Source: a virus (lineage: Duplodnaviria; Heunggongvirae; Uroviricota; Caudoviricetes). From it: 64,000 nucleotides of DNA. Position numbers and translations under genes: made by a program. The stretch lies in the IMG/VR virus record IMGVR_UViG_3300045988_024527, positions 29,796 through 93,795 of that record; one strand, given 5' to 3'. The notes under the pieces were generated by a model. The model saw only the letters and a list, made by a program, of their open reading frames with translations, was not told the origin of the DNA and did not search any database. Every line of letters begins with the position of its first letter. Positions within the stretch are counted from its first letter, which is position 1. This document shows positions 39,566 through 61,922 of the stretch, piece by piece.

Positions 39566-40345
39566 ATGGGTATTGTAAAAGTTGTAAAAGGTAACTTACT
39601 AGCTGCCTTCAAAAACACAGACATTGAATTAATTGCTCATGGTTGCAACTGTCGTAACCTCATGGGTGCTGGAATCGCTCAAAAAATTGCTAAGATTTTC
39701 CCAAAAGCTGAAGAAGCTGACCGGAAATTCCATAAGAAATTTGGCTATAGTGCTCATGATATCGGATACCAGATGATTGGTGAAGTGTCACATGCTCGAA
39801 CGGAGTACGGTTACATTTTTAATCTATACACACAGTTGGATGTTGGGAAGTGCGCATCATACCGATACTTAGTAGAGGCACTGGAAAAACTCCGCAAGTT
39901 TTGCTGGATGAACTCTATCCGTAAAATTGGATTACCTATGATTGGTGCAGGTATTGGGGGTTTAGATGCGGAGGCTGTAAAAAGCATCATTAATAGTGTC
40001 ATGCACAATGTTGATGTGTACCTTTACGTCTATGATAAAGAGATGGCAAGTGTAGTTACCCCTAAGTATGCTACCTCAGCACCACAATTCTATGATGGTG
40101 TCGTGCTAAGTGACGGGAAGACCAATCAAGTTACCCTCTATCAACTTGTTGAAGGTAAGGTCGAGGTTAGTTACCCTCTGGTTAGTGAGATGGGTATGTG
40201 CAACAGTGAAATGTTCCCAGTTGACCCGTTTGGAAGATATGAAGGTGTATTCTTTGATAACTACCCAGCAGCGTACATCTACACAACAAATCAGGATGAA
40301 GTTCACTACTTGCTGTATTCTAAAAAGTTCAAATTCATAAGCTGA
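39566..40345 (+). CDS. macro domain protein (ADP-ribose binding/hydrolase fold)
   Basis: macro signatures AHGCNCRNLMGAGIAQKIAKIFP and GLPMIGAGIGGLD; extra C-terminal domain. Confidence 0.7.
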   Translation: MGIVKVVKGNLLAAFKNTDIELIAHGCNCRNLMGAGIAQKIAKIFPKAEEADRKFHKKFGYSAHDIGYQMIGEVSHARTEYGYIFNLYTQLDVGKCASYRYLVEALEKLRKFCWMNSIRKIGLPMIGAGIGGLDAEAVKSIINSVMHNVDVYLYVYDKEMASVVTPKYATSAPQFYDGVVLSDGKTNQVTLYQLVEGKVEVSYPLVSEMGMCNSEMFPVDPFGRYEGVFFDNYPAAYIYTTNQDEVHYLLYSKKFKFIS

Positions 40346-40378
40346 TTAGTACTTCACAGTATCTACAAATCATCTAAG

Positions 40379-40426
40379 AAGGCTGCCTAACCCATTGAGA
40401 AATTTAAGGTAAGGCGGCCTTTTTCA
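40379..40426 (+). terminator. stem-loop with U-tract, probable terminator
   Basis: AGGCTGCC...GGCGGCCT + TTTTC. Confidence 0.4.
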
Positions 40427-40429
40427 TTT

Positions 40430-40675
40430 TCAATTTGTGCAGGTATCTGTAGGGGTCTGCACAGATATCCCAAAAAATCTCATCGCCGGATAGAAAAATC
40501 ATTTTCAAAACGTGCAGACCCCGCTCAGGTCGGGCAAGAAAAATCATTTTAGAATCGTGCAGGTAGGTTTTTATAGAGAGCCAGACCAGCCCCTCTCCCC
40601 CTCTTACTCCCCCTCTCCCCAAAAGTCAAGAGAAAAATTTGTAGCGGATTGAAAAATAATTCTTGATTTGTGTTC
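40430..40675 (+). promoter_or_regulatory. operator/iteron-like direct repeats (4 copies of TCATTTTNNAANNGTGCAG) with inverted repeat and C-rich tract
   Basis: copies near 40433, 40498, 40544, 40655; inverted TGTGCAG..CTGCACA at 40436-40463; CCCCTCTCCCCCTCTTACTCCCCCTCTCCCC at 40589-40620. Confidence 0.6.
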
Positions 40676-40741
40676 TGTTTTGTGGTAGTCGTGCGCGCCC
40701 GTTCCTCTCCCAACCTTACAAAAAATATTTAATAAAAACTG

Positions 40742-40770
40742 TTGACACACAAAACAGGTTTACGTAATAT
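40742..40770 (+). promoter_or_regulatory. consensus sigma70 promoter
   Basis: TTGACA-17 bp-TAATAT about 50 bp upstream of first cassette gene. Confidence 0.65.
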
Positions 40771-40819
40771 TTGCATCAGACGGGCAAGCAAGCCCACTTC
40801 CTAAACTGGAGATTCTAAA

Positions 40820-41026
40820 ATGTTATATCAACGCCAATTGATGATTGTAGACAATAACAAGACTAAAAAGCGCCGCTTCTTTATGCTTATTTGTGATGTA
40901 TGGCAACGTATCTCAGAAAAGGATTTTGATAAATATGTTGATACATCAATCAGGTCTGATTGTTACTTGACAAATCGCACAAGACAATTTACAAGACATA
41001 CGGCAATTTACTATTACGATAAATAA
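40820..41026 (+). CDS. small hypothetical protein (cassette array gene 1)
   Basis: preceded by CCTAAACTGGAGATTCTAAAATG leader. Confidence 0.5.
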   Translation: MLYQRQLMIVDNNKTKKRRFFMLICDVWQRISEKDFDKYVDTSIRSDCYLTNRTRQFTRHTAIYYYDK

Positions 41027-41037
41027 AAGTACTTTAC

Positions 41038-41112
41038 AAGGGGCTTAAAAGTTGATATCTTAAGCCCCAGATAAAGAGCTTTACTACTAAGTCCTAAACT
41101 GGAGATTCTAAA
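41038..41112 (+). repeat. cassette boundary type B (stem-loop + conserved RBS leader)
   Basis: GGGGCTTA..TAAGCCCC hairpin + AGATAAAGAGCTTTAC + CTAAACTGGAGATTCTAAAATG; copies at 42889 and 43681; variant at 41640. Confidence 0.75.
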
Positions 41113-41625
41113 ATGAAAACTGTAGACGCTACCTTTGAAGTTGTAAAAGAAAAATTCACTATTATTTATGAAGCTGTGAATTGCTTTGAAGCAAGCCATA
41201 ATCTTGATAATTGGGAGTTTACAGACACCCATCAGGGCGGCGTGACTATTAAAAACCCCAACTATCAGCGTAATGATTTTAAATATGCAATCCCTTTGCA
41301 TTACAGCCTTAAACAGCTTTCAAGTGACTATGCAAAACAGGGCCGGGAAAATCCATCAAAAGAGGCTTACATTAGCTTACAGAAAGAATTGGAAAGAGAT
41401 TTAGAGGCTTCAGAATACAACCTTGCCGCGAAAGTTGTCGATGCAAATGGTCAAACAATTTTAGACAGTTTTTATATTGGTTACGCTTTTGATTGGTGCT
41501 ATAGTGACGGCGATGATTTAGAGGATAGACTAAAAGAAGAGGTGAGCAATTCAGACGCAGAAACTGAAGTATTAGAACGTTTGGAATCATTAAAAGACTC
41601 AGTGATGAATATCTTTAAGAACTAA
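41113..41625 (+). CDS. acidic hypothetical protein (cassette array gene 2)
   Basis: 170 aa, Asp/Glu-rich C-terminal half. Confidence 0.55.
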   Translation: MKTVDATFEVVKEKFTIIYEAVNCFEASHNLDNWEFTDTHQGGVTIKNPNYQRNDFKYAIPLHYSLKQLSSDYAKQGRENPSKEAYISLQKELERDLEASEYNLAAKVVDANGQTILDSFYIGYAFDWCYSDGDDLEDRLKEEVSNSDAETEVLERLESLKDSVMNIFKN

Positions 41626-41639
41626 ATAGATTTCTTTAC

Positions 41640-41717
41640 ACGGGGTTATCAAGCTGATAAGATAGCCCCAGATAAAGAGCTTTATTCAAATCAACCCTTA
41701 AACTAGGAGACTCTAAA
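41640..41717 (+). repeat. cassette boundary type B variant
   Basis: GGGG..CCCC hairpin + AGATAAAGAGCTTTA + CCTTAAACTAGGAGACTCTAAAATG. Confidence 0.65.
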
Positions 41718-42014
41718 ATGAAATTATCAAATAAAGTCCGTGAAAATCTAAGCAAGTTACTCAATAAAATTGATTTCATTGAAACATCAAGGAATAGTCA
41801 TGATGTTATGGAATGGTTACACGGAAAAATCAAAGGCCGTCGTGTAGTGATTTGCTTATGGAATAGTTGTAGGGAATATAAAAAACCTGTATTGCAAGTC
41901 AATATCTACGATGATACTTTTAAAAGCCCTGTAAAGTCTAAAAGCGATTTATTAGAATCTTATGAGATAACTGTAAATGGCAAGGTATCACGTAAAGAGG
42001 AAACACCATGTTAA
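41718..42014 (+). CDS. small hypothetical protein (cassette array gene 3)
   Basis: 98 aa ORF. Confidence 0.5.
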   Translation: MKLSNKVRENLSKLLNKIDFIETSRNSHDVMEWLHGKIKGRRVVICLWNSCREYKKPVLQVNIYDDTFKSPVKSKSDLLESYEITVNGKVSRKEETPC

Positions 42015-42340
42015 TGACTGGTATCACTGCAATCATTGCCATTTTCGCGCTCTATAAGGCGTATAAGGCCTATAATCTAGCAAATAAGGCAATCACACAG
42101 CAGGTTAGCAATAACTTGGTAGAGAGCTTTCTAGGACGCCTCAGTGATGAGCAAATAAAGCGGCTAGATATGAGCTTCAGATATAAAGCGAAAACCTATC
42201 AGATAAGTGACATCTTCAAAGATGATTTTCAGTTAGTCGATGATTATAATTCACTGATAAATGCTTTGAATATCAGTGACTTAAAAGACTACTACGCTGT
42301 AATTGTTCAAGAGTTGAGCAAACGAAAACAAAATTCTTGA
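42008..42340 (+). CDS. small membrane-anchored hypothetical protein (cassette array gene 4)
   Basis: N-terminal hydrophobic helix GITAIIAIFALY; overlaps previous stop. Confidence 0.5.
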   Translation: MLMTGITAIIAIFALYKAYKAYNLANKAITQQVSNNLVESFLGRLSDEQIKRLDMSFRYKAKTYQISDIFKDDFQLVDDYNSLINALNISDLKDYYAVIVQELSKRKQNS

Positions 42341-42344
42341 CACT

Positions 42345-42430
42345 GATTTTTAGATAGGCTAAATTACACATCAACGGGGAGGGAATGACCTTCCCCACTA
42401 AATAAAGTCCTAAACTGGAGATTCAAAAAA
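42345..42430 (+). repeat. cassette boundary type A (promoter + stem-loop + conserved RBS leader)
   Basis: TTGACA-17-TAAATT then GGGGAGG-GAATGAC-CTTCCCC hairpin then ACTAAATAAAGTCCTAAACTGGAGATTC..ATG; copies at 43385, 44636, 45397, 45990. Confidence 0.75.
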
Positions 42431-42589
42431 ATGTTTTGTGCAGGTGATAAAGTTGTCTGGAATGATATAGATGACGGTTTATGTACGAAAGTTGTTGTTA
42501 TCTTAGAAATTGATTATATCACTGGTGTTGCAACTGTAGCAGATAATGATATAATCTTTGATGTCTTAATTAGTGAACTGTCAAAATAA
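42431..42589 (+). CDS. small hypothetical protein (cassette array gene 5)
   Basis: 52 aa ORF below track cutoff, directly after type A leader. Confidence 0.45.
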   Translation: MFCAGDKVVWNDIDDGLCTKVVVILEIDYITGVATVADNDIIFDVLISELSK

Positions 42590-42614
42590 AATCCTTAAAC
42601 TAGGAGCTTTTAAA

Positions 42615-42887
42615 ATGTATACTACCAACAACGGTCGCACCTTAAACGTAACCCTTCGTCACTATGTGAACGGTGTAATGCACTTCGAGGATTTACAAGC
42701 CGAACAACATATCTTAGATTGGCAACTTGCAGGACTACAAAAAACTGCTACAGGATACGGTAAAAAGATTCCAACCAGTTGGAAAGTACACTACGAAGGA
42801 CGTTTGCGCAGAATTTATCAGGATGTATGTAGCAATAGTGCATCGAGTTACATCATAGTAAAAGGTAAAAAACTGCATTTAGTGTAA
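42615..42887 (+). CDS. small hypothetical protein (cassette array gene 6)
   Basis: start placed at ATG after CCTTAAACTAGGAGCTTTTAAAATG leader (track ORF 42573 starts upstream). Confidence 0.5.
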   Translation: MYTTNNGRTLNVTLRHYVNGVMHFEDLQAEQHILDWQLAGLQKTATGYGKKIPTSWKVHYEGRLRRIYQDVCSNSASSYIIVKGKKLHLV

Positions 42888-42888
42888 A

Positions 42889-42972
42889 GTACTTTACAGG
42901 GGGCTTATAGTTCGATAAAGTAAGCCCCAGATAAAGAGCTTTACCACTAAGTCCTAAATTGGAGATTCTAAA
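42889..42972 (+). repeat. cassette boundary type B
   Basis: near-identical to 41038-41112. Confidence 0.75.
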
Positions 42973-43377
42973 ATGGCTATTAACAACCGTGAGTTATCAA
43001 TCTTAAAAGCGCGTTTGACCGTTAACCGGATTAATGTTATCACGTCATCAGCACCGGACGAAACATTACACAACATTATCGGGAAGATTCAAAGCGTTAT
43101 CTTAGACGTTGAAAATGTAAAAAGCTCATTGGCTGACGTTGCAGCAGGTATCACGCTAGACGGCGCACAATATGAAATGGCTGACATGTTAGGCAAATCA
43201 AAGATAATGAATAAAGAATTAGACTTGAAAATATTTCGATTTGCTGTCAAAGTGTGGCTATCTGTCGAGTATGACGCTAATTTTGCAATCGCTGATTTCT
43301 TTGCCACTTGGTTACAACGTAATTTGACAAATCACGATTTTCGTGATGTCTGTGATGTAATTTATGCAGAACTCTAA
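42973..43377 (+). CDS. hypothetical protein (cassette array gene 7)
   Basis: 134 aa ORF. Confidence 0.5.
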   Translation: MAINNRELSILKARLTVNRINVITSSAPDETLHNIIGKIQSVILDVENVKSSLADVAAGITLDGAQYEMADMLGKSKIMNKELDLKIFRFAVKVWLSVEYDANFAIADFFATWLQRNLTNHDFRDVCDVIYAEL

Positions 43378-43384
43378 AAATTTT

Positions 43385-43478
43385 GTTGACACTGGTTTTT
43401 AGATAGATTAAATTACACATCAACGGGGAGGGAATGACCTTCCCCACTAAATAAAGTCCTAAACTGGAGATTCTAAAA
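43385..43478 (+). repeat. cassette boundary type A (promoter + stem-loop + RBS)
   Basis: near-identical to 42345-42430. Confidence 0.75.
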
Positions 43479-43682
43479 ATGGCTATTATTAACGGCTTAA
43501 CCATTGAAACTACACACATCAAAGATATTAAAGTTGGTGATATAGTCCTTTCCCACGGCGTAGAAAAAACTGTCACTGCAAAGGATATCAAAGAGGATTC
43601 TTTCATGGGTAGGACTCTTTTCGGTGATTCTTATTGTTTAGGTTACCTTGCAGTTTTAAAAGTTGTCAAAAATAACAAATAA
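43479..43682 (+). CDS. small hypothetical protein (cassette array gene 8)
   Basis: 67 aa ORF. Confidence 0.5.
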   Translation: MAIINGLTIETTHIKDIKVGDIVLSHGVEKTVTAKDIKEDSFMGRTLFGDSYCLGYLAVLKVVKNNK

Positions 43683-43769
43683 AGTACTTTACAAGGGGCT
43701 TATAGTTCGATAAAGTAAGCCCCAGATAAAGAGCTTTACCACTAAATCCTTAAACTAGGAGATTCAAAA
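43681..43769 (+). repeat. cassette boundary type B
   Basis: near-identical to 42889-42972. Confidence 0.75.
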
Positions 43770-44336
43770 ATGAAATGCTATCACGGCACTACTCTGAAAA
43801 ACTTTGTAAACCTGCTTAAAGGTGGCGACAAGCCGGAAGGTATCTGGAACTGCTCTTACATGGATGATTGTTTTTACGTTTACCCGATGGATAAGATTAT
43901 CAAGACGGAATGCCTGGAAGATGAAGAAGCCTCTTACATCCGTGAACGCTGCATTCAAAACGCTTTAGAGTCGGGGCTTATTACGGCAGCTTTCCAAATG
44001 GAAACGCAGGAAGTGATTGTAATTGAGATGGATATCCCAGAGGAAGAACTTGAGGACGATTATTCTTGTGACAACATGAGCGAAATCGCCAGCTTTACCG
44101 GTTACTTTGATAAAGATTGGATTATCGGTATTCACTCGACGAAATTTAGTGCAATGTATGCGCCATTCTTTGTACCTGATACAACTAACCACAATTTGGG
44201 CTATATTGACGATGATTTGTTGAGTATTGCAAAAATTGTACAGAATAGCGGGGATACTTCTTCTGTGTTTTGTGACCTGTTGGATAAAATTACCGAGAAT
44301 CTCACAGAGCGCAATCTAAGCGACTTTTTAGTCTAA
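43770..44336 (+). CDS. acidic hypothetical protein (cassette array gene 9)
   Basis: 188 aa, strongly acidic (IPEEELEDDYSCDNMSE). Confidence 0.55.
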   Translation: MKCYHGTTLKNFVNLLKGGDKPEGIWNCSYMDDCFYVYPMDKIIKTECLEDEEASYIRERCIQNALESGLITAAFQMETQEVIVIEMDIPEEELEDDYSCDNMSEIASFTGYFDKDWIIGIHSTKFSAMYAPFFVPDTTNHNLGYIDDDLLSIAKIVQNSGDTSSVFCDLLDKITENLTERNLSDFLV

Positions 44337-44399
44337 GCAGTACAAAGACACTAATTTCCAACTTAAGGCCCATACAGGGCCATTTAGAGGGCCTAAATC

Positions 44400-44633
44400 A
44401 TGCTTACAACCGTTTATCTCATCCTTTCTATTTGTAATGGTCATTCATGTGATTTTAAAGGGCTTGAGGAGTTTACAGGAAGTAAAGAAAATGCTATTCA
44501 AGTTTGTCAGATAGCAAGACAAGACTATCCCGCAAGTGATGATATTCAGTGTTACTTTAAGACAGAAGATGGCGACGGAATCTATTTCGACAGTGTTGAT
44601 GGTCAATATGAAATTATCATTGAAAAAGACTAG
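44400..44633 (+). CDS. small Cys-containing hypothetical protein (cassette array gene 10)
   Basis: 77 aa; different upstream leader. Confidence 0.45.
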   Translation: MLTTVYLILSICNGHSCDFKGLEEFTGSKENAIQVCQIARQDYPASDDIQCYFKTEDGDGIYFDSVDGQYEIIIEKD

Positions 44634-44635
44634 AC

Positions 44636-44727
44636 AAGCCTGATAAAAACCTGTAAATTGTCAATCAACGGGGAGGCGATAACACCCCCCCCCACTAAAT
44701 AAATTCCTAAACTGGAGATTCAAAAAG
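44636..44727 (+). repeat. cassette boundary type A variant
   Basis: -10 TAAATT, hairpin GGGGAGGCGATAACACCCCCCCCC, leader ACTAAATAAATTCCTAAACTGGAGATTC. Confidence 0.65.
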
Positions 44728-44874
44728 ATGACGCATACTATTGAGACAGTTTTTAACAACCCTGTATTCTCAGAGATGATTTTCTCATTTGTCATAATGT
44801 TACTAGTAAAAACCATGAAAAAAGCAGAAAAACTTCATTTAAAGAAAAAATCTATTGTAAACCGTTTTAAGTAA
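44728..44874 (+). CDS. small hydrophobic protein (cassette array gene 11)
   Basis: 48 aa ORF below track cutoff with hydrophobic core. Confidence 0.4.
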   Translation: MTHTIETVFNNPVFSEMIFSFVIMLLVKTMKKAEKLHLKKKSIVNRFK

Positions 44875-44921
44875 AGATAAAGTATCTAGCAATCTCACTT
44901 CCTAAACTGGAGAATCTAAAA

Positions 44922-45263
44922 ATGGCTTATGTAACCGTAATTACCGATAAAGCTGGCTCATCTTGGTCAACTCAAGTAAGTGATAAGATGTCACCTATGC
45001 AGTGCCTAAAATACTTTGAGCAGTGGAATAAAGGCGAGGATGTAAACCCATTTCAAGTGATGCAGGTTATCCATGTAGATAACGAAGGGAATAAAACGAC
45101 TCTGAATAGTGAGTACTACGCAAGCCGTTTTGAAACGAGAAGTAAGACAATGAAGCTTTTACGTGAATCCGGTTATGCCCATATCGCCGCGTTAATCTGG
45201 GATGACCTTCTAAAAAGTCAGCGTATCAGCTATGTAAAACCTGAAAAAATATTCATCAGTTAA
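44922..45263 (+). CDS. hypothetical protein (cassette array gene 12)
   Basis: 113 aa; leader TTCCTAAACTGGAGAATCTAAAAATG. Confidence 0.5.
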   Translation: MAYVTVITDKAGSSWSTQVSDKMSPMQCLKYFEQWNKGEDVNPFQVMQVIHVDNEGNKTTLNSEYYASRFETRSKTMKLLRESGYAHIAALIWDDLLKSQRISYVKPEKIFIS

Positions 45264-45396
45264 TCAATAACTTACAAAAAACTTTTAAAAAAGTATTGAC
45301 AATACCCCTTGACATTGGTAACTTTGTTCGAGGGGGTTTATCTAAAAGGGATTCACTTAAAAGATTCTTTATAGATAAGCTTAAAAAATTGCTTGC

Positions 45397-45483
45397 AATC
45401 AGCTATCAAAACAAGTAAATTACTAATCAACGGGGAGGCAATAACATCCCCACTAAATAAATTCCTAAACTGGAGATTCTAAA
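45397..45483 (+). repeat. cassette boundary type A variant
   Basis: TTGCAA-17-TAAATT, hairpin GGGGAGGCAATAACATCCCC, conserved leader. Confidence 0.65.
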
Positions 45484-46014
45484 ATGAACAAATTTCAAGC
45501 TATCAACTTCATTCGTTCAAATGCTGTAATGTCTAAGCCTGTTAAAGATACCTATGAATTTCGCTGCAATGGGGTACACTTTGCAACCATCACTAAATCA
45601 GAAAACGGGGCTTATTACGTTCATCGTCGTAATGTTTATACCGTTGTAGTCTCTCACTTTATGCAAGCTGTAGCAGAGTTATTACCGTTATTCTTAGAGA
45701 TTTACTTAGATGAGTGTAAAAACGTTCACAACCACGTTAAAAACCTTTTAAACGGTTATAAAATGGCTTATGAGCGTTCTATCAAGTCCTTAAACAAGTT
45801 CTATAAAGCCCCTGCAAATACTGTATCAATAGCTTATGATGTAAGCGGTGAAATGGTCAACCTCTCCAATGTAGAACAAATTGGCCTTTATGACTTACGT
45901 CCTAGCGGTTACTCTAAGACACTGGGAGAGGGCTTATCTTTCAATATCAAGAACTTAGAGAAAACTTTAAAAGATATTGAAAAAGATATTGACGAGACAA
46001 TCAAAAATCTGTAA
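45484..46014 (+). CDS. hypothetical protein (cassette array gene 13)
   Basis: 176 aa ORF. Confidence 0.5.
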   Translation: MNKFQAINFIRSNAVMSKPVKDTYEFRCNGVHFATITKSENGAYYVHRRNVYTVVVSHFMQAVAELLPLFLEIYLDECKNVHNHVKNLLNGYKMAYERSIKSLNKFYKAPANTVSIAYDVSGEMVNLSNVEQIGLYDLRPSGYSKTLGEGLSFNIKNLEKTLKDIEKDIDETIKNL

Positions 46015-46081
46015 ATTGTCAATCAACGGGGAGGGAATGACCTTCCCCACTAAATAAAGCCCTAAACTGGAGAATCTAAAA
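45990..46081 (+). repeat. cassette boundary type A
   Basis: TTGACG-17-TAAATT overlapping stop of previous gene; GGGGAGGGAATGACCTTCCCC hairpin. Confidence 0.7.
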
Positions 46082-46330
46082 ATGGCAACTATCCGCGCTA
46101 CTGTTAACGAGTTCGGTTTTTCCTCTCTGGATGTTAAATTTGACATTGCAGGCACTGATAATGCCTTTGAAATGGTGAAAGGTCTTATCAGTCAGACCAT
46201 CAAAGATTATAATCCTTCGGATGAGTTCTGGGAGGAAACAAAACAAGAAGTTCTCAAGGATGGTTATACTTATCACTATTGGGGAGAAAAAATCGTCTCC
46301 CTGTACTACAACAAACAAGATTATAACTAA
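46082..46330 (+). CDS. small hypothetical protein (cassette array gene 14)
   Basis: 82 aa ORF. Confidence 0.5.
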   Translation: MATIRATVNEFGFSSLDVKFDIAGTDNAFEMVKGLISQTIKDYNPSDEFWEETKQEVLKDGYTYHYWGEKIVSLYYNKQDYN

Positions 46331-48115
46331 TCGACGCAGCGGGGCTAAATAGCCCCAGATACCTTTATACAGCCCCTCATAGGGGCTTTTTTACGTCTAT
46401 CGAATCCTTATACAATCTCTTTCCATCACCTTTCCAGAATCTTATCAGACCTTAAAAGCAATAACTCTATAGTCTACTCTATAACCTCTTATCAAATCAA
46501 CTTAAATAAAAGCCAATAACCCCAGAAAGGGGATGGCCCATTTAAACGCTCTATAACGCTCTATAACAGCCTTATTAACCTAACTTAAGGGATTGCATTA
46601 ACCTATCTTAAAAAGCTCTTTACAGGGCTTTATAGAGACTTAAAAGAATCTTATAAGGGTGTAAGCTTATAGGCTGGTTAGTATCTTGTGAATGGTTAAA
46701 CAACCCCCTTGCTAGTCACTAAAAAGCATGTTATAGGGGCTATAAAGTTACTTCAAAGTTACGTAAAAGTAGCTTAAAAGTTACGTAAATGCTAGCCCCC
46801 TTAACATTTTCTTAACATTTTCTTAACAAACCCTACACAGTTATACTTTTAAGACACTTGTTAGCAACTTGTTAGCCCCTTGTTAAATCTCTGTTAAGAC
46901 CACGTAAAAGCCTTGTAAGAGTCTTTGACATAGCCTTAAAAGCTTCTGTAAAGCCCTATAAAGAGGTGTCTGTACAGTTGGGGGGTAGATACTAGGAAGA
47001 GGCTTAAAAGAGCTTATAAAGAGCTATAGAGAGCTTTTAAGAGGGCTATTTAGAGAATCACTAAGAAGGGAAAGGGAACGATAAGAAAAAGAGAGTTATG
47101 TTTGTAAACAACCACTGTGACCATGTTAATAGCTTGTTAAAAAGATTAAACACTTGTTAGAAACTTGTTAATTATCTTAATTGGTATTGTTACCAATCCC
47201 TACAAAATAACTCTTAAAAATTAACTAATTAGTTCTTGTTAGTCATCTGTTAAGCCTCTGTAAAGCCTATTCAGCACTTGTTAATTGGTATTGTTACCAA
47301 TCCCTAGAAAACTGTTACATCCTTGTTAGTTCTGTTAAGAATCTGTTAAGACCTTTGAAGAGATGTTAAGAAGATGTGAGAACTGTTAAGAGATTGTTAA
47401 GGATATTTTAAAATTTTGCAAAGTACTTGTAAGGGAGCTGTTAAGGGCTACCAAGCAGATATACATCATGAGGTAGATTCTACCGAATCAACTAGACAGA
47501 TATTTTTCAGTTCCTTCAAAGACCCTAAAAAATGACTTGATAGTCCTATTTTATAAAAATTTTAAAATTCTGAATAATTACCTATACAGTCTTTTAAAAA
47601 TACAGGTAGAAACAGGCTTATAAGATACCTTGTTAGTACCGTGTTAGACCTTGTGAGATAAGGTCTGTAAAGATATTCCTGTTAAGTTTGTTAAAACAGT
47701 CTATATAGAGGCTTAGTAATACCTAGTGAACACCTATAGAGGGTATCATAGGTAACCTAGAGATTAAGAGATGTATAGGAGCTTCTAAGAGGGTGTAGAG
47801 GGATGGTTAAGGTGATTGTATAGGTTGTTAAGAAGGTTTGTTAGAAGAGTGTTTAGAAGGCTTGTTAGAGGGCTAGTTAGAAGGGTTATACAGAGGGGCT
47901 ATTAAGACCACTAGATAGTTACTAAGATACTATATAGTACTATATAACTATATATAGAGAGTAAGATTAAGAAGGTTGTTAAGAAGGATAGATATTTTGT
48001 TCACATATGATGGTGACCCAGAGGTTGGGACAACCGATAAAATTTTATAAAAAATATAAATTTCGTAAATTTTACTCAATAAAAAGCCCCCAATTAAGGA
48101 GGCTCTTAAGATATT
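46331..48115. repeat. 1.8 kb ORF-free region dense in short degenerate direct and inverted repeats
   Basis: no ORF of 60 aa or more; families CTTGTTAG/CTGTTAAG/GTTAGAAG, duplicated TTAATTGGTATTGTTACCAATCCCTA (47170, 47280), tandem CGCTCTATAA and CATTTTCTTAAC doublets; between convergent gene blocks. Confidence 0.7.
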
Positions 48116-54977: not shown

Positions 54978-55369
54978 AGATAATCCTCTTGTCTTCTGTA
55001 ATTTTGAAAGAACAGGTACAGACCAATTTCAGAGGATGAATAGTAGATTAACTCTACCCTTTTTGATTCCTTACAGTGATTGGTATTCTTACCTTTCTTC
55101 GGTTTATTTGATTTTCTCATTAAGTCTCCTTTGTAGAACAAGGCAGACCTACAGCTTTAAGTAAGATGGTACAGTAATCCATACAACAAGTCAAGAACTA
55201 TTGCAAGTTAAAAAAGTTGTTGACAAAGTACTTGACAAGGTGTAGGCTTATAAATACTTAGAAGATAACTTAAAAGGTTCCTCTAAAAAGGCTATTTAAA
55301 CAGATATCTTTCTGGATATCTATCTTTTATCTTAAAAGCCTTTTAAGAGGTCTTATAAGAGGCATACCA

Positions 55370-57403: not shown

Positions 57404-57480
57404 CTCTGTTTAGCTCAGATTGGTAGAGCGTTCCGTTTGGGGCGGTAAGGCCGGAGGTTCAAGTCCTCCAACAGAGACCA
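57404..57480 (+). tRNA. tRNA-Pro (anticodon UGG), hand-folded
   Basis: acceptor CTCTGTT/AACAGAG, T-arm GGAGG-TTCAAGT-CCTCC, loop TTTGGGG, CCA encoded. Confidence 0.55.
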
Positions 57481-57487
57481 AATTAAT

Positions 57488-57565
57488 GTTCCAGTAGACA
57501 AAATGGTATAGTCACCACTCTTTCAAAGTGGATATCTGAGGGTTCAAATCCCTTCTGGAACGCCA
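57488..57565 (+). tRNA. tRNA-Glu (anticodon UUC), hand-folded
   Basis: acceptor GTTCCAG/CTGGAAC, anticodon stem CCACT/AGTGG loop CTTTCAA, CCA encoded. Confidence 0.55.
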
Positions 57566-57650
57566 GTTTTGACAGAAGACCGATTACAGCAAACAACTTT
57601 TACTTTTCGCGCATAGAAAACATAAAAAGCTTGGTCTGGTCATTAAGAAT

Positions 57651-57727
57651 CGCGGGTATAGAGAAAGGGCGTCTCACATGTCTCATTAGCATGGTAACGG
57701 TTGGTTCGACTCCAACACCCGCCTCCA
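57651..57727 (+). tRNA. tRNA-Met/Ile2 (anticodon CAU) with unpaired 1:72
   Basis: anticodon stem CATGT/GCATG loop CTCATTA, T-arm GTTGG-TTCGACT-CCAAC, C1-C72 mismatch. Confidence 0.45.
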
Positions 57728-57812
57728 AATTTACAGAAGACCGTTTACAGCAAAATTTAATGAAATTTTTAGCGGAAAAAATTGAAAGATACGGTCTGGT
57801 AATACTAAACAT

Positions 57813-57889
57813 GGTTAGGAAGCACATAAGGTATGTGCGGTCGCCTGTTAAGCGAATGGCACAGGGTTCGAGTCCCTGACTAACCGCCA
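57813..57889 (+). tRNA. tRNA-Asn (anticodon GUU)
   Basis: D-arm GCAC-ATAAGGTAT-GTGC, loop CTGTTAA, T-arm CAGGG-TTCGAGT-CCCTG, CCA. Confidence 0.6.
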
Positions 57890-57898
57890 AATTTAAAT

Positions 57899-57986
57899 GT
57901 GTCGTTATCCCGTAGATGGTAGCGGTGGGGACTGTAAATCCCTTGTCATTGAGACTCGGTAGGTTCGACTCCTACACGGCACACCA
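57899..57986 (+). tRNA. tRNA-Tyr (anticodon GUA), class II with long variable arm
   Basis: 88 nt; anticodon loop CTGTAAA; T-arm GTAGG-TTCGACT-CCTAC; CCA. Confidence 0.55.
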
Positions 57987-58008
57987 ATACTTAGCGAGAT
58001 ACTTAGTT

Positions 58009-58437
58009 ATGAGAGATGAAGTATACAAATCACAACTTGGTATGAGTTTAGGAACTGCACAAAACAGACTAGTAAAAGATTTGCTATTCGATTTGATATG
58101 TAAAACAAATCAAAATATATGTTTTCAGTGCGGAAAAGAAATGACTAGGGATGATTTCTCCATCGAGCATAAGATTCCGTGGAGACATAGTGAAAATGCA
58201 AAAGAGCTTTTCTTTTCATTAGATAATATTTCTTATAGTCATCTTAAATGTAATATGAAAGCAGCAAGACCAGCACAGGTATATGATAGGAAGCCTAAAC
58301 CAATTAAACACGGCACTGCACACAGCTACTCTAAAGGTTGTAGATGCGAGGAGTGTAGGCTGGCTAAGAATGCTGAGGGCAGGAAGCACTATAACCCAGA
58401 AAGGCGTAGGAAGAAGTATTTAAGAAATGGTACATAG
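58009..58437 (+). CDS. HNH endonuclease
   Basis: CFQCGKEM..FSIEHKIPW..HLKCN HNH motif; start set after tRNA-Tyr (track ORF 57916 overlaps tRNA). Confidence 0.6.
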   Translation: MRDEVYKSQLGMSLGTAQNRLVKDLLFDLICKTNQNICFQCGKEMTRDDFSIEHKIPWRHSENAKELFFSLDNISYSHLKCNMKAARPAQVYDRKPKPIKHGTAHSYSKGCRCEECRLAKNAEGRKHYNPERRRKKYLRNGT

Positions 58438-58443
58438 GGTTTT

Positions 58444-58519
58444 GGGGTGTTAGTTTAGACGGGTAAAATACTGGATTGTCTCTCCTGAGCCGCGAGTTCG
58501 ATTCTCGCACACCTCGCCA
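58444..58519 (+). tRNA. tRNA, anticodon unresolved (non-canonical anticodon arm; GUC/Asp possible)
   Basis: clear acceptor GGGGTGT/ACACCTC, T-arm GCGAG-TTCGATT-CTCGC and CCA; anticodon stem not clean. Confidence 0.4.
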
Positions 58520-58946
58520 ATTTTGAGAGGGCTATTTAGCCCCTCCCTTAAAGGGTTCTTACGAGTATCCTTTAAAGGAGCAGAAGACCAAATACAGCAA
58601 GTTACTTAAAATTTCAAGCCAATTCAATTTTGAAAAATTTAAAACTTGGTCTGGCTCAACAAATTTACAGAAGACCGTTTACAGCAAAACTTAAACAATC
58701 TATTTCTCCGGTAAAGAAAAGGCGAAGGTTCGATTCCTTCACTCGGCAGATGTCGAGTTGGTGTAATGGTAGCACTTAAGATGATAAACAACGGTCTGGT
58801 AATTATCTTTGTAGATAAGTTATTAAGCTTCCCTGTGAGTATGCGACCACAAAGGTGAAGGGTAAATTCTAGATTTAAACCCAAAAAGGCACATCGCTAC
58901 AGACCTTAAGCAAGTCTGGGTAGCTTATCTACAAAGATAATTTAAT

Positions 58947-59022
58947 GGAAGTGTAGCAGAATGGTGATGCGGCAGACTTTTAATCTGACAGGCGATGGGT
59001 TCGAATCCCTCCACTTCTACCA
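58947..59022 (+). tRNA. tRNA-Lys (anticodon UUU)
   Basis: acceptor GGAAGTG/CACTTCT, anticodon loop CTTTTAA, T-loop TTCGAAT, CCA. Confidence 0.5.
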
Positions 59023-59026
59023 ATAT

Positions 59027-59103
59027 GGTTCAGTCGCAGATAAGGTAATGCAAGGGTCTCATAAGCCCTATGAATGTGGGTTCGATTCCCATCTGAACCT
59101 CCA
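59027..59103 (+). tRNA. tRNA-Met (anticodon CAU)
   Basis: acceptor GGTTCAG/CTGAACC, anticodon stem AGGGT/GCCCT loop CTCATAA, T-arm GTGGG-TTCGATT-CCCAT, CCA. Confidence 0.55.
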
Positions 59104-59111
59104 ATTTATAG

Positions 59112-59606
59112 GTGATACTTATGATTTGTGCTAACAAAGATTGCGGAAATGAAGCCGTTAAAGGTGGAAAATTTTGCTCACGCTCTTGTTCTGCAAAAGT
59201 GAACAACAAGAAACACCCAAAGAGAAGTCAGGAAGGCTCTTGCCATTCATGCGGAAAGGTAACGCCAAAAGCGAGAAAATACTGTGACGAATGTATTGCA
59301 GGTGGAGTCATGAAAAAACATAAGACCCATCATGAAAAAAGCAAAGCCAAATCACTGCACGTTAAAAAGTCTCGTGACAGACTGAAGAAGGCTTTAGTTG
59401 ATTACAAGGGTGGTTGTTGTTCAATTTGTGGTTACAATAGGTGCATAAAGGCTCTAGAGTTTCACCACTTAGACCCTAAGACAAAAGACTTCACAGTAAG
59501 TAAAAAACACTACTCACTGGCTACAATGCAGTCTGAAGTTGATAAGTGTGTCTTGCTTTGTGCAAATTGTCACAGAGAAGTACACGAAGGGGTAACAATG
59601 CTGTGA
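59112..59606 (+). CDS. HNH endonuclease
   Basis: EFHHLDP..CVLLCANCHREVH HNH motif plus N-terminal Cys-rich region. Confidence 0.65.
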   Translation: MILMICANKDCGNEAVKGGKFCSRSCSAKVNNKKHPKRSQEGSCHSCGKVTPKARKYCDECIAGGVMKKHKTHHEKSKAKSLHVKKSRDRLKKALVDYKGGCCSICGYNRCIKALEFHHLDPKTKDFTVSKKHYSLATMQSEVDKCVLLCANCHREVHEGVTML

Positions 59607-59675
59607 AAGCACATATGGATGTGCGTTCGGCTGATAACCGAAAGGCAGAAGGTTCGAATCCTTCTCACAGTACCA
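59600..59675 (+). tRNA. tRNA-Ile (anticodon GAU)
   Basis: D-arm GCAC-ATATGGAT-GTGC, anticodon stem TTCGG/CCGAA loop CTGATAA, T-arm GAAGG-TTCGAAT-CCTTC, CCA; 5' end overlaps HNH stop. Confidence 0.6.
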
Positions 59676-60005: not shown

Positions 60006-60060
60006 ATTTTGGAGAAATCATGAAAACTTGTATTAGGTGCAAACTTAGCAAGGATGAATA

Positions 60061-60175
60061 GGTAAGGTGTTGAATGTTAAAAAAAAAAAATCCCATTATT
60101 TGACGAGATAGAAAACAACTCAGTAACAAATGGTGACTCTATCGAGCTAATAAAAAAAGTACAAACTCAATCCGC
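60061..60175 (+). repeat. direct repeat copy 1 (start of plasmid unit; repeated at 63889-64000)
   Basis: GGTAAGGTGTTGAATGTTAAAAA..CCCATTATTTGACGAGATAGAAAACAACTC..GCTC near-identical except poly-A length and one substitution. Confidence 0.85.
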
Positions 60176-60995
60176 TCACTTAATACTGAGTGATATTCCT
60201 TACGGAATAGGAGCTGATGATTGGGATGTACTTCATAAAAACTCGAACAATGCCTATCTAGGTTCAAGCCCCGCACAAAAATCAGCTGGTGCCATTTTCA
60301 AAAAAAGAGGAAAGCCTATAAATGGCTGGTCTGATGCAGATAGAAAAATACCTTTAGAGTATCAACAATGGTGTGAAGAGTGGGCGAGGGAATGGTATCG
60401 TGCCTTAAAACCAGGAGCTAGTGCAATCATTTTCGCTGGTAGGAGATTTTCACACAGATGTATTTGCGCAATGGAAAATGCTGGATTTAACCTCAGAGAT
60501 ATAATCGCATGGATGCGAACAAAAGCTCCTCATCGTGCACAAAGGCTAAGCTGCGTATATGAAAGGCGTGGGGACCAATATAACAAAGAAAAATGGGACG
60601 GCTGGAGGGTTGGAAACTTACAGCCAACATTTGAGCCAATACTATGGTTTTCAAAACCCTACAAAATAGGAGGGACTATTGCTGATAACGTTCTATTGCA
60701 TGGTGTTGGAGCATATAACCAAGATGCGTTCACAGCAAGAAATGGAAAACCTGAAAATGTAATACATGCTGGCTTTGAGAGAAATGAAGGTGGATTACAT
60801 CCAACGCAGAAGCCTGTTTCGCTGATGAAAGCGCTAATAGAACTAACTACTCAAGAAGGACAGCTAGTAATAGATCCATTTAGTGGTAGCGGTTCAACTC
60901 TTGTGGCAGCAAAAGAGCTGGGCAGAAACTATATAGGCTTCGAGTTTAACCCAGCATATGTAGAAATAAGCAAAAAAAGATTAGAAGATAAATAA
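60074..60995 (+). CDS. Type II DNA methyltransferase (amino-MTase, motif IV before motif I); frameshifted in A12 tract
   Basis: motif IV SDIPYG, motif I VIDPFSGSGST; ATG at 60074 is out of frame with the body (frame opens at 60081) because of 12-A run at 60079-60090; in-frame in second copy. Confidence 0.75.
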
Positions 60996-61922
60996 CTACT
61001 TAAGTGACAGTATATTATTATCTGTCACTTTATTTATTTGGTCTATCCTACTGTCTATTTTATGCATTTTTATCAACGCACTGACAGCCTCATCCTTGGT
61101 CATCATTAGCATCCTTGTACGTTCAGAAGATAGAAATTCTATAGCCATTTTTTTTGAAACGGCAATACCCTCAGTTGTGGCTGATTTTTCATCACTCCAA
61201 AGCTCAGCTATCCTACTATCATAGCTTAACATTGTTCTATTTATATTCACCCAATATTGCACACTATCTTTGCTAGGGTTGAGTAAAGATACAGATTTAA
61301 ATATTTCACCAAGAAGGTTTTTACTATCTTCAGTTGTTGCTATAGCTGAATATCTTATGAGAACGGCCAGGTGTGTATATGTAAAAACACAAACATTTCG
61401 CAATATAGCTTGCTGATATATTTGACTTGATTTTGTTGGCAACTGATATATTGGACATACAACCATTGCAAAGTCTTTGGTATTTCTCCAACCATCCATA
61501 GCCTGAACTTTAAAGTCTTTTTGATTTTTTGCAGTTCTACTCAAGCGAAATACTTTGGCATCTGCCACAAATGAATAGCTATCGCAAACAACCTCAACAT
61601 CAGCCGCATCTGCCCTTTCAGTCAAAACAATACTATTTAACCCTAAATATTTAAAACATTCTGATATCAGTGCATCTGTATACTTTGAGTACAGTTTTTC
61701 TTCACTTGAATCATGATCATATGACTCAGGTATTGCTGTGCATAACCTAAGGTGGTCTAGTAATGCTTGACTTCCAGATTTCTTAACCTCATCTATTATT
61801 TCATTTTCAACTCTGCTTGAGTCGTTAACAAAGTGACCACTTAGTTTTACTATTTCATCAATCCAGTAACGCCTTCTTATTATTGCATCTTCAGTAATGA
61901 ATTTAAAATTACATAAGTCCAT
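60996..61922 (-). CDS. putative Type II restriction endonuclease
   Basis: 308 aa ORF convergent and abutting the MTase; possible PD-(D/E)xK-like CD..VADAK; no direct motif proof. Confidence 0.45.
   Translation of the reverse strand: MDLCNFKFITEDAIIRRRYWIDEIVKLSGHFVNDSSRVENEIIDEVKKSGSQALLDHLRLCTAIPESYDHDSSEEKLYSKYTDALISECFKYLGLNSIVLTERADAADVEVVCDSYSFVADAKVFRLSRTAKNQKDFKVQAMDGWRNTKDFAMVVCPIYQLPTKSSQIYQQAILRNVCVFTYTHLAVLIRYSAIATTEDSKNLLGEIFKSVSLLNPSKDSVQYWVNINRTMLSYDSRIAELWSDEKSATTEGIAVSKKMAIEFLSSERTRMLMMTKDEAVSALIKMHKIDSRIDQINKVTDNNILSLK

What the first reader, a model, noticed from the sequence alone, without database searches (positions are those of the whole stretch)
40430..40800. Operator/iteron-like repeat hub with consensus promoter at the head of the cassette array
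Four direct copies of TCATTTTNNAANNGTGCAG (about 40433, 40498, 40544, 40655), an inverted repeat TGTGCAG..CTGCACA, a 32-nt C/T-only tract and a perfect TTGACA-17-TAATAT promoter all lie in 370 bp with no ORF. This looks like a protein-controlled switch or origin-like element.
Basis: seen in the sequence. Interest (0 to 1): 0.6.

Follow-up and report, generated by a model that had tools for sequence, protein, structure and literature searches.

The report
Conserved repeat array in Felix-O1-like phages
A 470-base non-coding stretch of a Felix-O1-like phage genome carries three copies (four in most relatives) of a 25-base two-part motif found nowhere else in the genome but kept at this spot across the whole phage subfamily, so it is almost certainly an undescribed protein-binding control site whose function (transcription boundary or replication origin) still needs an experiment.

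Summary
The window is about 60 kb of a Felixounavirus (Felix-O1-like myophage) genome joined to a small E. coli plasmid. The finding lies in the 474-bp ORF-free gap between the macro-domain gene and the first gene of an array of small early genes.

Three of the four claimed repeats are real (40424, 40499, 40544). The fourth is not a copy. The promoter TTGACA-17-TAATAT, the pyrimidine tract (31 nt, one A) and the short inverted repeat are present.

The unit W5-TCATTTY-N6-GTGCAG occurs only here in the whole genome. It is kept as 3-4 same-direction copies, in the same order and spacing, in Felixounavirus, Mooglevirus and Suspvirus. Kolesnikvirus and one metagenomic lineage keep it with the right half changed to GTGCAT in every copy. 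Cores are invariant while the spacers vary.

It is not the genome end (that is at 46795), not coding, and not a structured RNA. It has no easily melted segment and no GC-skew turn.

Best reading (about 0.4): an iteron-like array for a phage-encoded DNA-binding protein that acts as a transcription boundary or switch beside a terminator and two or three promoters. Main rival (about 0.2): a replication origin of the T4 oriE type. The element is undescribed in the searched literature and of moderate interest.

The parts
40381..40429 (+). Intrinsic terminator of the upstream operon. The stem is GGCTGCCTAACC / GGTAAGGCGGCC and is followed by TTTTTCATTTT.
   Evidence: The RNA fold pairs 40376-40424 into one long hairpin. 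It corresponds to terminator t13 of Felix O1 (PMC3185647). The 3' half is conserved in all relatives. The simple scan missed it because the loop exceeds 8 nt.
40419..40444 (+). Repeat R1, CTTTTTCATTTTCAATTTGTGCAGGT. Its left half is the T-tract of the terminator.
   Evidence: Weight-matrix score 39.1 bits. Present in all relatives examined.
40457..40463 (-). Inverted copy of the right half-site only (CTGCACA). In this lineage it lies where most relatives have repeat R2.
   Evidence: Not conserved: relatives read CTGTACA or carry a full R2 instead.
40494..40519 (+). Repeat R3, AAAAATCATTTTCAAAACGTGCAGAC. It is the second copy in this genome, because R2 of other genomes is missing here.
   Evidence: 29.3 bits. 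Homology with most relatives resumes exactly at 40499, so this is also a recombination breakpoint.
40539..40564 (+). Repeat R4, AAAAATCATTTTAGAATCGTGCAGGT.
   Evidence: 33.1 bits. The 45-nt spacing from R3 to R4 is the same in the Felixounavirus, Mooglevirus and Suspvirus genomes examined, with one exception at 43 nt.
40590..40620 (+). Polypyrimidine mirror repeat, an H-DNA-type sequence. It is one of two alternative alleles at this position.
   Evidence: Composition. Replaced by the G-rich tract GGTAGGTGGGTGTAGGTGGGG in phiWec177, finno, skuden, Alf5 and SP116.
40601..40629 (-). Putative leftward promoter P(-): TTGACT (40629-40624), 17 nt, TAAGAG (40606-40601). It is weak in this allele.
   Evidence: TTGACT followed 17 nt later by TA is kept in both non-homologous alleles: TAAGAG, or TGG-TAGCCT. 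Kolesnikvirus has TTGACC-18-TATACT at the equivalent place. The same -35 context drives a real leftward gene at 55.19 kb. It falls below the scan threshold, and its activity is inferred.
40621..40666 (.). Nearly invariant 46-nt block, AAAAGTCAAGAGAAAAATTTGTAGCGGATTGAAAAATAATTCTTGA. Its ends form the inverted pair TCAAGA...TCTTGA.
   Evidence: Alignment of 17 genomes from three genera. It is more conserved than the flanking DNA.
40652..40677 (+). It is not a repeat unit; it overlaps the conserved block and the weak promoter P(+)2.
   Evidence: -9.4 bits. The GTG of its supposed right half is not conserved in relatives.
40663..40691 (+). Putative weak rightward promoter P(+)2: TTGATT, 17 nt, TAGTCG, preceded by TGG.
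   Evidence: Hexamers and the 17-nt spacing are kept in all lineages, but the last -10 base is G almost everywhere. Activity is inferred.
40715..40741 (+). A/T-rich tract upstream of the main promoter, resembling an UP element.
   Evidence: It contains the least stable 60-bp window of the interval (98th percentile). The A/T-rich character is conserved.
40742..40770 (+). Main sigma-70-type early promoter, TTGACA-17-TAATAT.
   Evidence: 10 of 12. Conserved as TTGACW-17-TA(A/G/C)TAT followed by TTGCATCA in all relatives. Annotated as a promoter in phage ASO1B.
40800..41026 (+). Conserved translation-start module CCTAAACTGGAGATTCTAAAATG and the first small gene of the array (68 aa, phrog_5293, function unknown).
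   Evidence: This gene is not the first gene in all relatives.

Best explanation
The interval is a single-copy, subfamily-wide cis-acting control region.

Its core is an array of same-direction, two-part sites, W5-TCATTTY then 6 variable bases then GTGCAG. This genome has three sites and most relatives have four. A sequence-specific DNA-binding protein encoded by the phage most likely binds them and builds a multi-protein complex directly behind the intrinsic terminator of the roughly 30-kb upstream operon.

The complex sits next to a back-to-back pair of weak promoters and lies 180-320 bp upstream of the strong sigma-70 promoter that heads the array of small early genes. I propose it works as a transcription boundary or switch. 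It would back up the terminator against read-through from the left. It would also stop leftward transcription from P(-) running antisense into the upstream operon. The result is that the early-gene array is expressed only from its own promoters and on its own schedule.

Shown: the array exists, is unique in the genome, is under strong purifying selection, and its core changes in concert between lineages. Also shown: the terminator and the main promoter at sequence level.

Inferred: that the binder is a protein and is phage-encoded, that P(-) and P(+)2 fire, and that the effect is on transcription rather than on replication.
For: Uniqueness. A weight-matrix scan of the phage part of the window plus the missing 28 kb from the closest relative finds the unit only at 40419, 40494 and 40539 (29-39 bits; next best 15.7, which is within the shuffle range).

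Conservation.
- 256 phage records match the interval.
- In all 17 aligned Felixounavirus, Mooglevirus and Suspvirus genomes the copies keep order, direction and spacing.
- A scan of 2.9 million viral contigs for a tandem pair returns only 84-90-kb contigs of this subfamily plus shorter fragments of them, one locus each, and one unrelated duplication.
- Kolesnikvirus phiEa104 (macro protein 34% identical) and the metagenomic lineage L037 have the same layout: macro gene, terminator, array, promoter.

Selection pattern. Over 24 distinct sequences the entropy is 0.0 bits in GTGCAG, 0.07-0.26 in W5-TCATTTT, 0.33-0.45 in N6 and 0.80 in the spacer.

Concerted change. The right half is GTGCAG in every copy in three genera and GTGCAT in nearly every copy in the other two lineages (one L037 unit reads GTGGAT). 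Each copy nevertheless keeps its own N6 and flanks. This fits a co-evolving phage binder and does not fit an invariant host factor or recent homogenisation of the copies.

Context. There is a terminator on the left and promoter-like elements and a strong promoter on the right. The same TCTTGACTT -35 context belongs to a real leftward promoter at 55.19 kb.

Not an origin by the testable criteria. Not coding, and not a structured RNA.
Against: No binding protein has been identified. All neighbouring genes are of unknown function, and the structure model of the first downstream protein was unusable (pLDDT 60).

The sites do not overlap any promoter hexamer. R4 lies about +31 to +52 from the inferred P(-) start and 177 bp upstream of the main -35, so classical repression or activation of initiation is unlikely.

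Asymmetric direct repeats are more typical of iterons than of operators. P(-) has a poor -10 (TAAGAG) in this genome, and P(+)2 ends in G almost everywhere.

The distance from the array to the promoters is not conserved between genera: about 40 bp against about 144 bp to the P(-) -10. No transcript or binding data exist for any member of the subfamily in the searched literature.
Confidence: 0.4

Rival explanations
1. Replication origin of the iteron type. A phage-encoded initiator binds the 3-4 direct repeats, and transcription from the adjacent promoters opens the duplex or supplies the primer, as proposed for T4 oriE (iterons plus an early promoter).
For: The sites are asymmetric, two-part, 19-26 bp long, in 3-4 same-direction copies, at a single locus in the genome, and co-evolve between lineages. 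These are the hallmarks of iterons. Promoters are adjacent. The T4 oriE precedent is a cluster of direct repeats conserved in syntenic regions of related phages and dependent on an early promoter (PMC3016281). In the C-rich allele a leftward transcript would start with a purine-only, G-rich stretch, which favours an RNA-DNA hybrid.
Against: - There is no easily melted element. The least stable 120-bp window in the interval is at the 66th percentile of the window.
- The cumulative GC skew has no inflection here; its minimum is at 9.5-10 kb and its maximum at 47-48 kb.
- The divergent, AT-rich gap next to the DNA polymerase gene (9391-9617) is the least stable 120 bp of all 64 kb and a better candidate.
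- No initiator-like protein was recognised.
- Spacing is irregular (75 and 45 bp here; 73/39/45 and 37/37/39 elsewhere) and not the two-turn spacing usual for iterons.
- The G-rich-RNA feature is reversed in the alternative allele.
Confidence: 0.2
2. The repeats act as RNA. A leftward non-coding transcript from P(-) carries 3-4 unstructured copies of CUGCAC-N6-AAAAUGA-W5. These would bind or titrate an RNA-binding protein or ribosomal subunits (a sponge), or act as antisense to the 3' end of the upstream operon.
For: A leftward promoter-like element is kept in both non-homologous alleles and is strong in Kolesnikvirus. All units point the same way. In this genome the minus strand of R4 shares 12 consecutive bases with the start region of the cassette genes (I2).
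Against: There is no conserved secondary structure apart from the terminator (consensus energy -5.1 kcal/mol), and no Rfam family matches. The -10 of P(-) is poor in this genome. There is no conserved terminator in the leftward direction. The resemblance to the gene start region shrinks to 6-7 bases in Felix O1 and Mordin, so it is probably chance.
Confidence: 0.1
3. Binding sites for a host protein such as DnaA, which would sequester or recruit it.
For: In Kolesnikvirus and L037 the right half plus the preceding base reads TGTGCATAG or GTGGATAGG. That is 7-8 of 9 matches to the DnaA box TGTGNATAA (consensus from established knowledge).
Against: In this genome and in all Escherichia, Salmonella, Shigella and Citrobacter phages the same positions read TGTGCAGGT, only 5-6 of 9. 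A host protein that is invariant across Enterobacterales would not select different cores in different phage lineages. DnaA also does not explain the equally conserved TCATTTT half.
Confidence: 0.07
4. A genome terminus, packaging recognition site or DNA-ejection stop signal.
For: The phage Andreotti record breaks inside the array. The array lies about 6-7 kb (7-8% of the genome) from the right end, which recalls the first-step-transfer region of T5 (from memory, untested).
Against: Two records ordered by PhageTerm (direct terminal repeats of 581 and 613 bp) both begin at window 46795, about 6.2 kb downstream. The Andreotti break is an assembly artefact: it has a fold-back end and the genome is about 4 kb short, the size of the collapsed repeated cassettes. 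No two-step DNA transfer is known for this subfamily.
Confidence: 0.05
5. Functionless relics of tandem duplication of the terminator's 3' flank.
For: The left half of each unit, GG-N4-TTTTTCATTTT, resembles the end of the terminator.
Against: The cores are invariant next to variable spacers across at least five lineages whose flanking protein is only 34-41% identical. Order and spacing are also preserved. Neutral relics would have decayed.
Confidence: 0.04

Closest known systems
[quoted passage not shown]
   Same: Both belong to a virulent myophage. Both are a single cluster of short direct repeats in a region with an early, host-type promoter and small early genes. Both are conserved in the syntenic region of relatives, and in both the role is still undefined (PMC3016281).
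   Different: The units here are 19-26 bp and two-part, against 12 nt in T4. There are only 3-4 copies, at irregular spacings of 37-75 bp. There is no sequence similarity. T4 oriE is a mapped origin lying near a switch in transcription direction and nucleotide skew. This locus has neither a skew change nor an easily melted segment, and no origin mapping exists for it.
Iteron origins of lambdoid phages and plasmids (lambda ori with four O-protein sites; R6K, P1, F and pPS10 iterons)
   Same: Both have several asymmetric sites of about 20 bp in the same direction at one locus, with lineage-specific sequence that implies a cognate binder.
   Different: Those origins have an adjacent AT-rich unwinding region, a linked initiator gene, and spacing of about two helical turns. 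None of these was found here.
Phage phi29 central transcription control region (four p4 sites between divergent early and late promoters)
   Same: Both are a unique non-coding hub of a few hundred bp, with about four sites for a small phage protein, A-tract-rich DNA, and divergent promoters. In phi29 it works as a temporal switch (established knowledge, recalled from memory).
   Different: The p4 sites are inverted repeats that overlap the promoters they control. Here the sites are direct repeats that lie beside the promoter hexamers rather than on them, and no regulator is known.
Promoter-plus-stem-loop cassettes (PeSL) of T4-type phages
   Same: The downstream array of small genes, each with a repeated promoter, stem-loop and start-region module, resembles these cassettes (the comparison is from memory of Arbiol et al. 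2010).
   Different: PeSL-type modules are the repeated junctions between cassettes. The array studied here is a different motif, occurs once, and sits upstream of the first cassette.

Membership tests
Iteron-type replication origin | Three or more direct repeats of about 17-22 bp in one orientation | tested here: met
   Three units here and four in most relatives. The core is 19 bp, or 26 bp with flanks, and all are on the + strand.
Iteron-type replication origin | Regular spacing, usually about two helical turns | tested here: not met
   Start-to-start spacing is 75 and 45 bp here, and 73/39/45, 75/41/45 or 37/37/39 in relatives.
Iteron-type replication origin | An adjacent AT-rich DNA-unwinding element | tested here: not met
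   By nearest-neighbour stability, the best 120-bp window in the interval is at the 66th percentile. The only weak spot is the 60-bp promoter-upstream tract.
Iteron-type replication origin | A cognate initiator protein encoded nearby or elsewhere in the genome | tested here: inconclusive
   No Rep, O or DnaA-like family was found among 40 neighbouring and replication-module proteins. Many of these proteins are of unknown function.
Iteron-type replication origin | An inflection of nucleotide skew at the site | tested here: not met
   The cumulative GC skew rises steadily through 40.4 kb. Its extremes are at about 9.5 kb and about 47.5 kb. Skew here follows gene direction, so the test is weak.
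Iteron-type replication origin | Replication actually starts there | not testable with these tools
   This needs marker-frequency or nascent-strand mapping.
Operator array / transcription switch | Binding sites overlap or abut the promoter elements they control | tested here: not met
   R4 ends 38 bp from the -10 of the putative P(-) (on its transcribed side) and 177 bp from the main -35.
Operator array / transcription switch | Promoters are present in the same control region | tested here: met
   The main promoter matches 10 of 12 positions and is conserved. Two weaker conserved promoter-like elements lie back to back. All are sequence-level predictions only.
Operator array / transcription switch | A known regulator protein that binds the sites | not tested
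   No candidate was identified, and binding assays are needed.
Genome terminus / packaging site of a phage with direct terminal repeats | Coincides with the physical ends of virion DNA | tested here: not met
   PhageTerm-ordered records of Pr103Blw and Ro111lw start at window 46795.
Sigma-70 promoter (40742-40770) | -35 TTGACA, 17-nt spacer, -10 with A at position 2 and T at position 6, and conserved in relatives | tested here: met
   Activity was not tested.
Intrinsic terminator (40381-40429) | A G+C-rich hairpin followed by a T-run | tested here: met
   A 12-bp stem and TTTTTCATTTT. Equivalent to t13 of Felix O1, -21.8 kcal/mol (PMC3185647).
Structured non-coding RNA | A conserved secondary structure with covariation, or a match to an RNA family | tested here: not met
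   RNAalifold consensus energy is -5.1 kcal/mol with 13 pairs. Rfam gives only sub-threshold hits on the terminator hairpin.
DnaA-box cluster | Match to TTWTNCACA (complement TGTGNAWAA) | tested here: not met
   The units here read TGTGCAGGT or CGTGCAGAC, 5-6 of 9. Only Kolesnikvirus and L037 reach 7-8 of 9.
Protein-coding gene | An open frame conserved between relatives, with indels in multiples of three | tested here: not met
   Spacing differs by 1-2 nt between genera. Annotated minus-strand ORFs in Mordin, Moogle and Sf14 use different frames. All six N6 positions vary, with no three-base periodicity.

The most novel reading that the evidence does not exclude
The array is the recognition site of a so far unidentified Ounavirinae-specific DNA-binding protein, and it nucleates an origin of replication. 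That would be an iteron-plus-early-promoter origin in a virulent myophage with a T7-type primase-helicase, the working counterpart of the still unexplained T4 oriE iterons. A less likely novel reading is that it specifies a leftward non-coding RNA carrying 3-4 repeated protein-binding motifs.
Probability: 0.25. Interest if true: 0.6.

Novelty: new member of a known kind. Interest (0 to 1): 0.42.

Why it matters
Felix-O1-like phages are widely used for Salmonella typing, biocontrol and therapy, and Bas63 is a model phage of the BASEL collection. Neither their replication origin nor the control of their early-to-late gene expression is known. The 2010 genome paper states that temporal regulation is not understood.

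A single, invariant, subfamily-wide cis-element is a concrete handle on these questions. It can be scrambled, used as bait to fish out its binding protein, or cloned to test for origin activity or for interference with infection. It also marks the fixed inner border of the most variable region of these genomes, the array of small early genes, and is a recombination breakpoint between gene alleles. That matters for engineering these phages and for understanding their mosaic structure.

Tried and rejected
1. Genome terminus. This was suggested by the Andreotti record ending inside the array. It was rejected because the PhageTerm-defined terminal repeat maps to 46795, and the Andreotti end is a fold-back assembly artefact.
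2. Small minus-strand gene. This was rejected on frame-breaking differences in spacing between genera.
3. Structured RNA on either strand. No conserved structure was found and there is no Rfam match. The low folding z-score of the + strand comes from the terminator and a lineage-specific inverted repeat.
4. Mimic of the cassette-gene start region. The minus strand of R4 shares 12 bases with it, but only in this lineage, so this is probably chance.
5. R-loop or Rho-loading role for the pyrimidine tract. The tract is swapped for a G-rich tract in other lineages, so no strand-specific role is conserved.
6. Host-factor sites. CRP, IHF, Fis, Fur, PurR, the MarA box, the PhoB box, sigma-54, sigma-E and the RfaH ops element were compared by eye with consensus sequences recalled from memory. 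None fitted all copies. DnaA is treated as a rival explanation.
7. Type I restriction site. The two-part form resembles such sites, but it does not match EcoKI (AAC-N6-GTGC) or the other sites I could recall.
8. A DNA-binding neighbour gene. All neighbours fall in PHROG families of unknown function and have no Pfam domain. AlphaFold2 on the first downstream 68-aa protein, with only 3 homologues available, gave pLDDT 60, so no fold search was run.
9. Literature. Searches for Felixounavirus or Felix O1 with transcriptome, start sites, origin, iterons or Bas63 found nothing on this region. The PhageMaP paper reports gene-level scores for Bas63 only.
10. Bacterial genomes. A scan of 185,579 genomes for the tandem motif found 17 hits, all in metagenome-assembled genomes of uncultured bacteria (Bacteroidales, Ignavibacteria, Prevotellaceae and others); none is an isolate Enterobacterales genome and none was examined further.

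Full report
**What the window is.** Positions 1 to about 60057 are a Felixounavirus (Felix-O1-like myophage, subfamily Ounavirinae) genome. It is 86-96% identical to many phage records. Positions 60058-64000 are not phage. They are 99.4-99.8% identical to a 3.8-kb ColE1-type E. coli plasmid and run for more than one plasmid length, so the window is a chimera or a concatenation. This does not touch the finding.

The finding lies in the 474-bp gap (40346-40819) between a macro-domain gene (39566-40345; Pfam Macro) and the first of a series of small genes of unknown function. Each of those genes is preceded by repeated promoter, stem-loop and start-region modules.

**Checking the observation.**
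- The pattern TCATTTTNNAANNGTGCAG hits 40424, 40499 and 40544, against 0.38 hits expected per window at up to 2 mismatches.
- The fourth copy is not real. It has 6 of 15 specified bases wrong and scores -9.4 bits, against 29-39 bits for the true copies.
- The inverted repeat TGTGCAG/CTGCACA exists but only in this lineage.
- The 'C/T-only' tract is 31 nt with one A, and is a perfect mirror repeat.
- TTGACA-17-TAATAT lies at 40742-40770 and matches 10 of 12 consensus positions.

**The repeats are unique in the genome.** I built a 26-column weight matrix from the copies in 18 genomes. I scanned the window plus the parts of the genome the window lacks, taken from the closest relative VpaE1_ev035 (L020 and L070). 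Only the three sites score above the range of shuffled sequence.

**The repeats are conserved far beyond this genome.**
- 256 phage records match the interval.
- In 17 aligned genomes of Felixounavirus, Mooglevirus and Suspvirus the units keep order, direction and spacing (73-75, 39-41 and 45 nt). Most have four units; the lineage of this window lacks R2.
- A scan of 2.9 million viral contigs for two units in tandem returned 30 loci. Twenty-nine are 84-90-kb contigs of this subfamily or shorter fragments of them, with one locus each.
- The distant Kolesnikvirus phiEa104 (macro protein 34% identical) has the same layout. After the macro gene and its terminator come four units TTTTTCATTTT-N6-GTGCATAG at spacings of 37, 37 and 39 nt, then a C-rich tract, then back-to-back strong promoters.
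- A further metagenomic lineage (L037) has GTGCATAGG and GTGGATAGG units, again just downstream of a macro-domain gene.

**The pattern of variation points to a binding site.** Over 24 distinct R3-R4 sequences, entropy is 0.0 bits in GTGCAG, 0.07-0.26 in W5-TCATTTT, 0.33-0.45 in the 6-nt gap and 0.80 in the spacer. The right half-site differs between lineages in essentially all copies at once (GTGCAG against GTGCAT). Each copy nevertheless keeps its own gap and flank sequence across genomes. So the copies are not being homogenised, and the concerted change implies a binder that co-evolves with the phage. This argues against an invariant host factor. The Kolesnikvirus form resembles a DnaA box (8 of 9), but the form in this genome does not (5-6 of 9).

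**What it is not.**
- *Not the genome end.* Two records ordered by PhageTerm (terminal repeats of 581 and 613 bp; PMC8303462, PMC6454146) both start at the sequence found at window 46795. The record of phage Andreotti breaks inside the array, but with a fold-back artefact and about 4 kb missing.
- *Not coding.* Spacings differ by 1-2 nt between genera.
- *Not a structured RNA.* The consensus fold is worth -5.1 kcal/mol and no Rfam family matches.

**Anatomy of the rest of the interval.**
- R1 overlaps the T-tract of a strong intrinsic terminator (t13 of Felix O1).
- After R4 comes a variable tract with two unrelated alleles, pyrimidine-rich as here or G-rich.
- Next is a nearly invariant 46-nt block (40621-40666). 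Its ends carry inverted -35-like hexamers.
- The leftward element is TTGACT-17-TAAGAG here and TTGACT-17-TGG-TAGCCT in the other allele. The TA at exactly 17 nt survives the allele swap. Kolesnikvirus has TTGACC-18-TATACT at the same place. The same TCTTGACTT context belongs to a real leftward promoter at 55.19 kb.
- The rightward element, TTGATT-17-TAGTCG, is weak.
- Then follow an A/T-rich tract and the main promoter, conserved as TTGACW-17-TAnTAT-TTGCATCA.

**Origin or transcription control?** In favour of an origin are the iteron-like nature of the sites and the T4 oriE precedent: direct repeats beside an early promoter, conserved in relatives, with a role still undefined (PMC3016281). Against it:
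- There is no easily melted segment. The best 120-bp window is at the 66th percentile.
- The GC skew has no turn here.
- No initiator was recognised.
- The AT-rich divergent gap next to the DNA polymerase gene (9391-9617) is a clearly better candidate. It is the least stable 120 bp of the whole window and lies at the skew minimum.

In favour of transcription control are the position directly behind a terminator and beside two or three promoters, and the precedent of unique multi-site control hubs such as that of phi29. Against it, the sites do not overlap promoter hexamers and no regulator is known.

Weighing these, I put about 0.4 on a protein-bound boundary or switch. The rivals get:
- about 0.2 for an origin;
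- 0.1 for an RNA-level role;
- about 0.07 for a host factor;
- 0.05 for ejection or packaging;
- 0.04 for a functionless relic.

The remainder is unassigned. That the array is a functional, selected cis-element I hold at about 0.9.

**Novelty.** The Felix O1 genome paper lists the terminator and longer repeats but not this array. GenBank annotations mark only the start-region repeats, a promoter and terminators. Literature searches found nothing on this region. It is a new, uncharacterised member of a familiar kind of element: a short direct-repeat protein-binding array in a phage control region.

Noticed in passing
window 60058-64000: This part of the window is not phage. It is 99.4-99.8% identical to the 3,824-bp E. 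coli plasmid p2017.17.01CC_4 (ColE1-type origin, HindIII-family restriction-modification genes). It continues past one full plasmid length and is joined abruptly to the phage tRNA/HNH region. This is a chimeric contig or a concatenation of records. The phage part has no match in complete E. coli genomes or in the plasmid collection.
   Followed up: partly
window 46331-48115 (physical end at 46795): This is a 1.7-kb non-coding stretch that holds the direct terminal repeat. Two PhageTerm-ordered relatives start at GCCCCCTTAACATTTTCTTAACA, which is window 46795. The stretch is packed with CTTGTTA (11 of the window's 21 copies) and CTGTTAAG (7 of 18). These are probably packaging or end-recognition repeats.
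   Followed up: partly
window 9391-9617: An AT-rich gap between the divergently transcribed DNA polymerase gene and the replication/nucleotide-metabolism genes. It is the least stable 120 bp of the whole window and lies at the cumulative GC-skew minimum. It contains CTTAAAAG repeats and a long near-palindrome. It is the best sequence-level candidate for a replication origin.
   Followed up: partly
window 9416-9445 and 55214-55243: A shared promoter-like module with two overlapping -35 elements, GTTGACAA-N3-ACTTGACAAGGTGT. It occurs at both large divergent intergenic regions and is followed each time by CTTAAAAG-type repeats. It may be a distinct promoter class.
   Followed up: no
window 40800-46330: An array of small genes of unknown function, with 8 copies of the start region TCCTAAACTGGAGATTCTAAAATG, four 104-nt promoter modules and three 90-nt promoter-plus-stem-loop modules. 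It resembles the promoter/stem-loop cassettes of T4-type phages. Gene content differs between close relatives.
   Followed up: partly
window 39566-40498: The macro-domain gene and the left part of the intergenic region exist as two alleles, only about 41% identical at protein level, among otherwise close Felixounaviruses. Homology with most relatives resumes exactly at repeat R3 (40499), so the repeat array is a recombination breakpoint.
   Followed up: partly
window 40590-40620: A perfect homopyrimidine mirror repeat, CCCCTCTCCCCC-TCTTACT-CCCCCTCTCCCC, which is a triplex/H-DNA-type sequence. VpaE1_ev035 carries an expanded version with an internal palindrome. Other lineages have an unrelated G-rich tract at the same place.
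   Followed up: partly
L002 (phage Andreotti, MN850610.1, record positions 1-25): The deposited 'complete genome' starts inside the repeat array with a 15-nt fold-back, the reverse complement of the flank of R3. It is about 4 kb shorter than its relatives, so the assembly is probably collapsed or broken at the repeated cassettes.
   Followed up: no
window 57404-59675: A cluster of nine tRNA genes on the + strand (Pro, Glu, Met, Asn, Tyr, Asp, Lys, Met, Ile), interleaved with HNH endonuclease genes. Relatives continue with about 15 more tRNA genes where this window switches to plasmid sequence.
   Followed up: no
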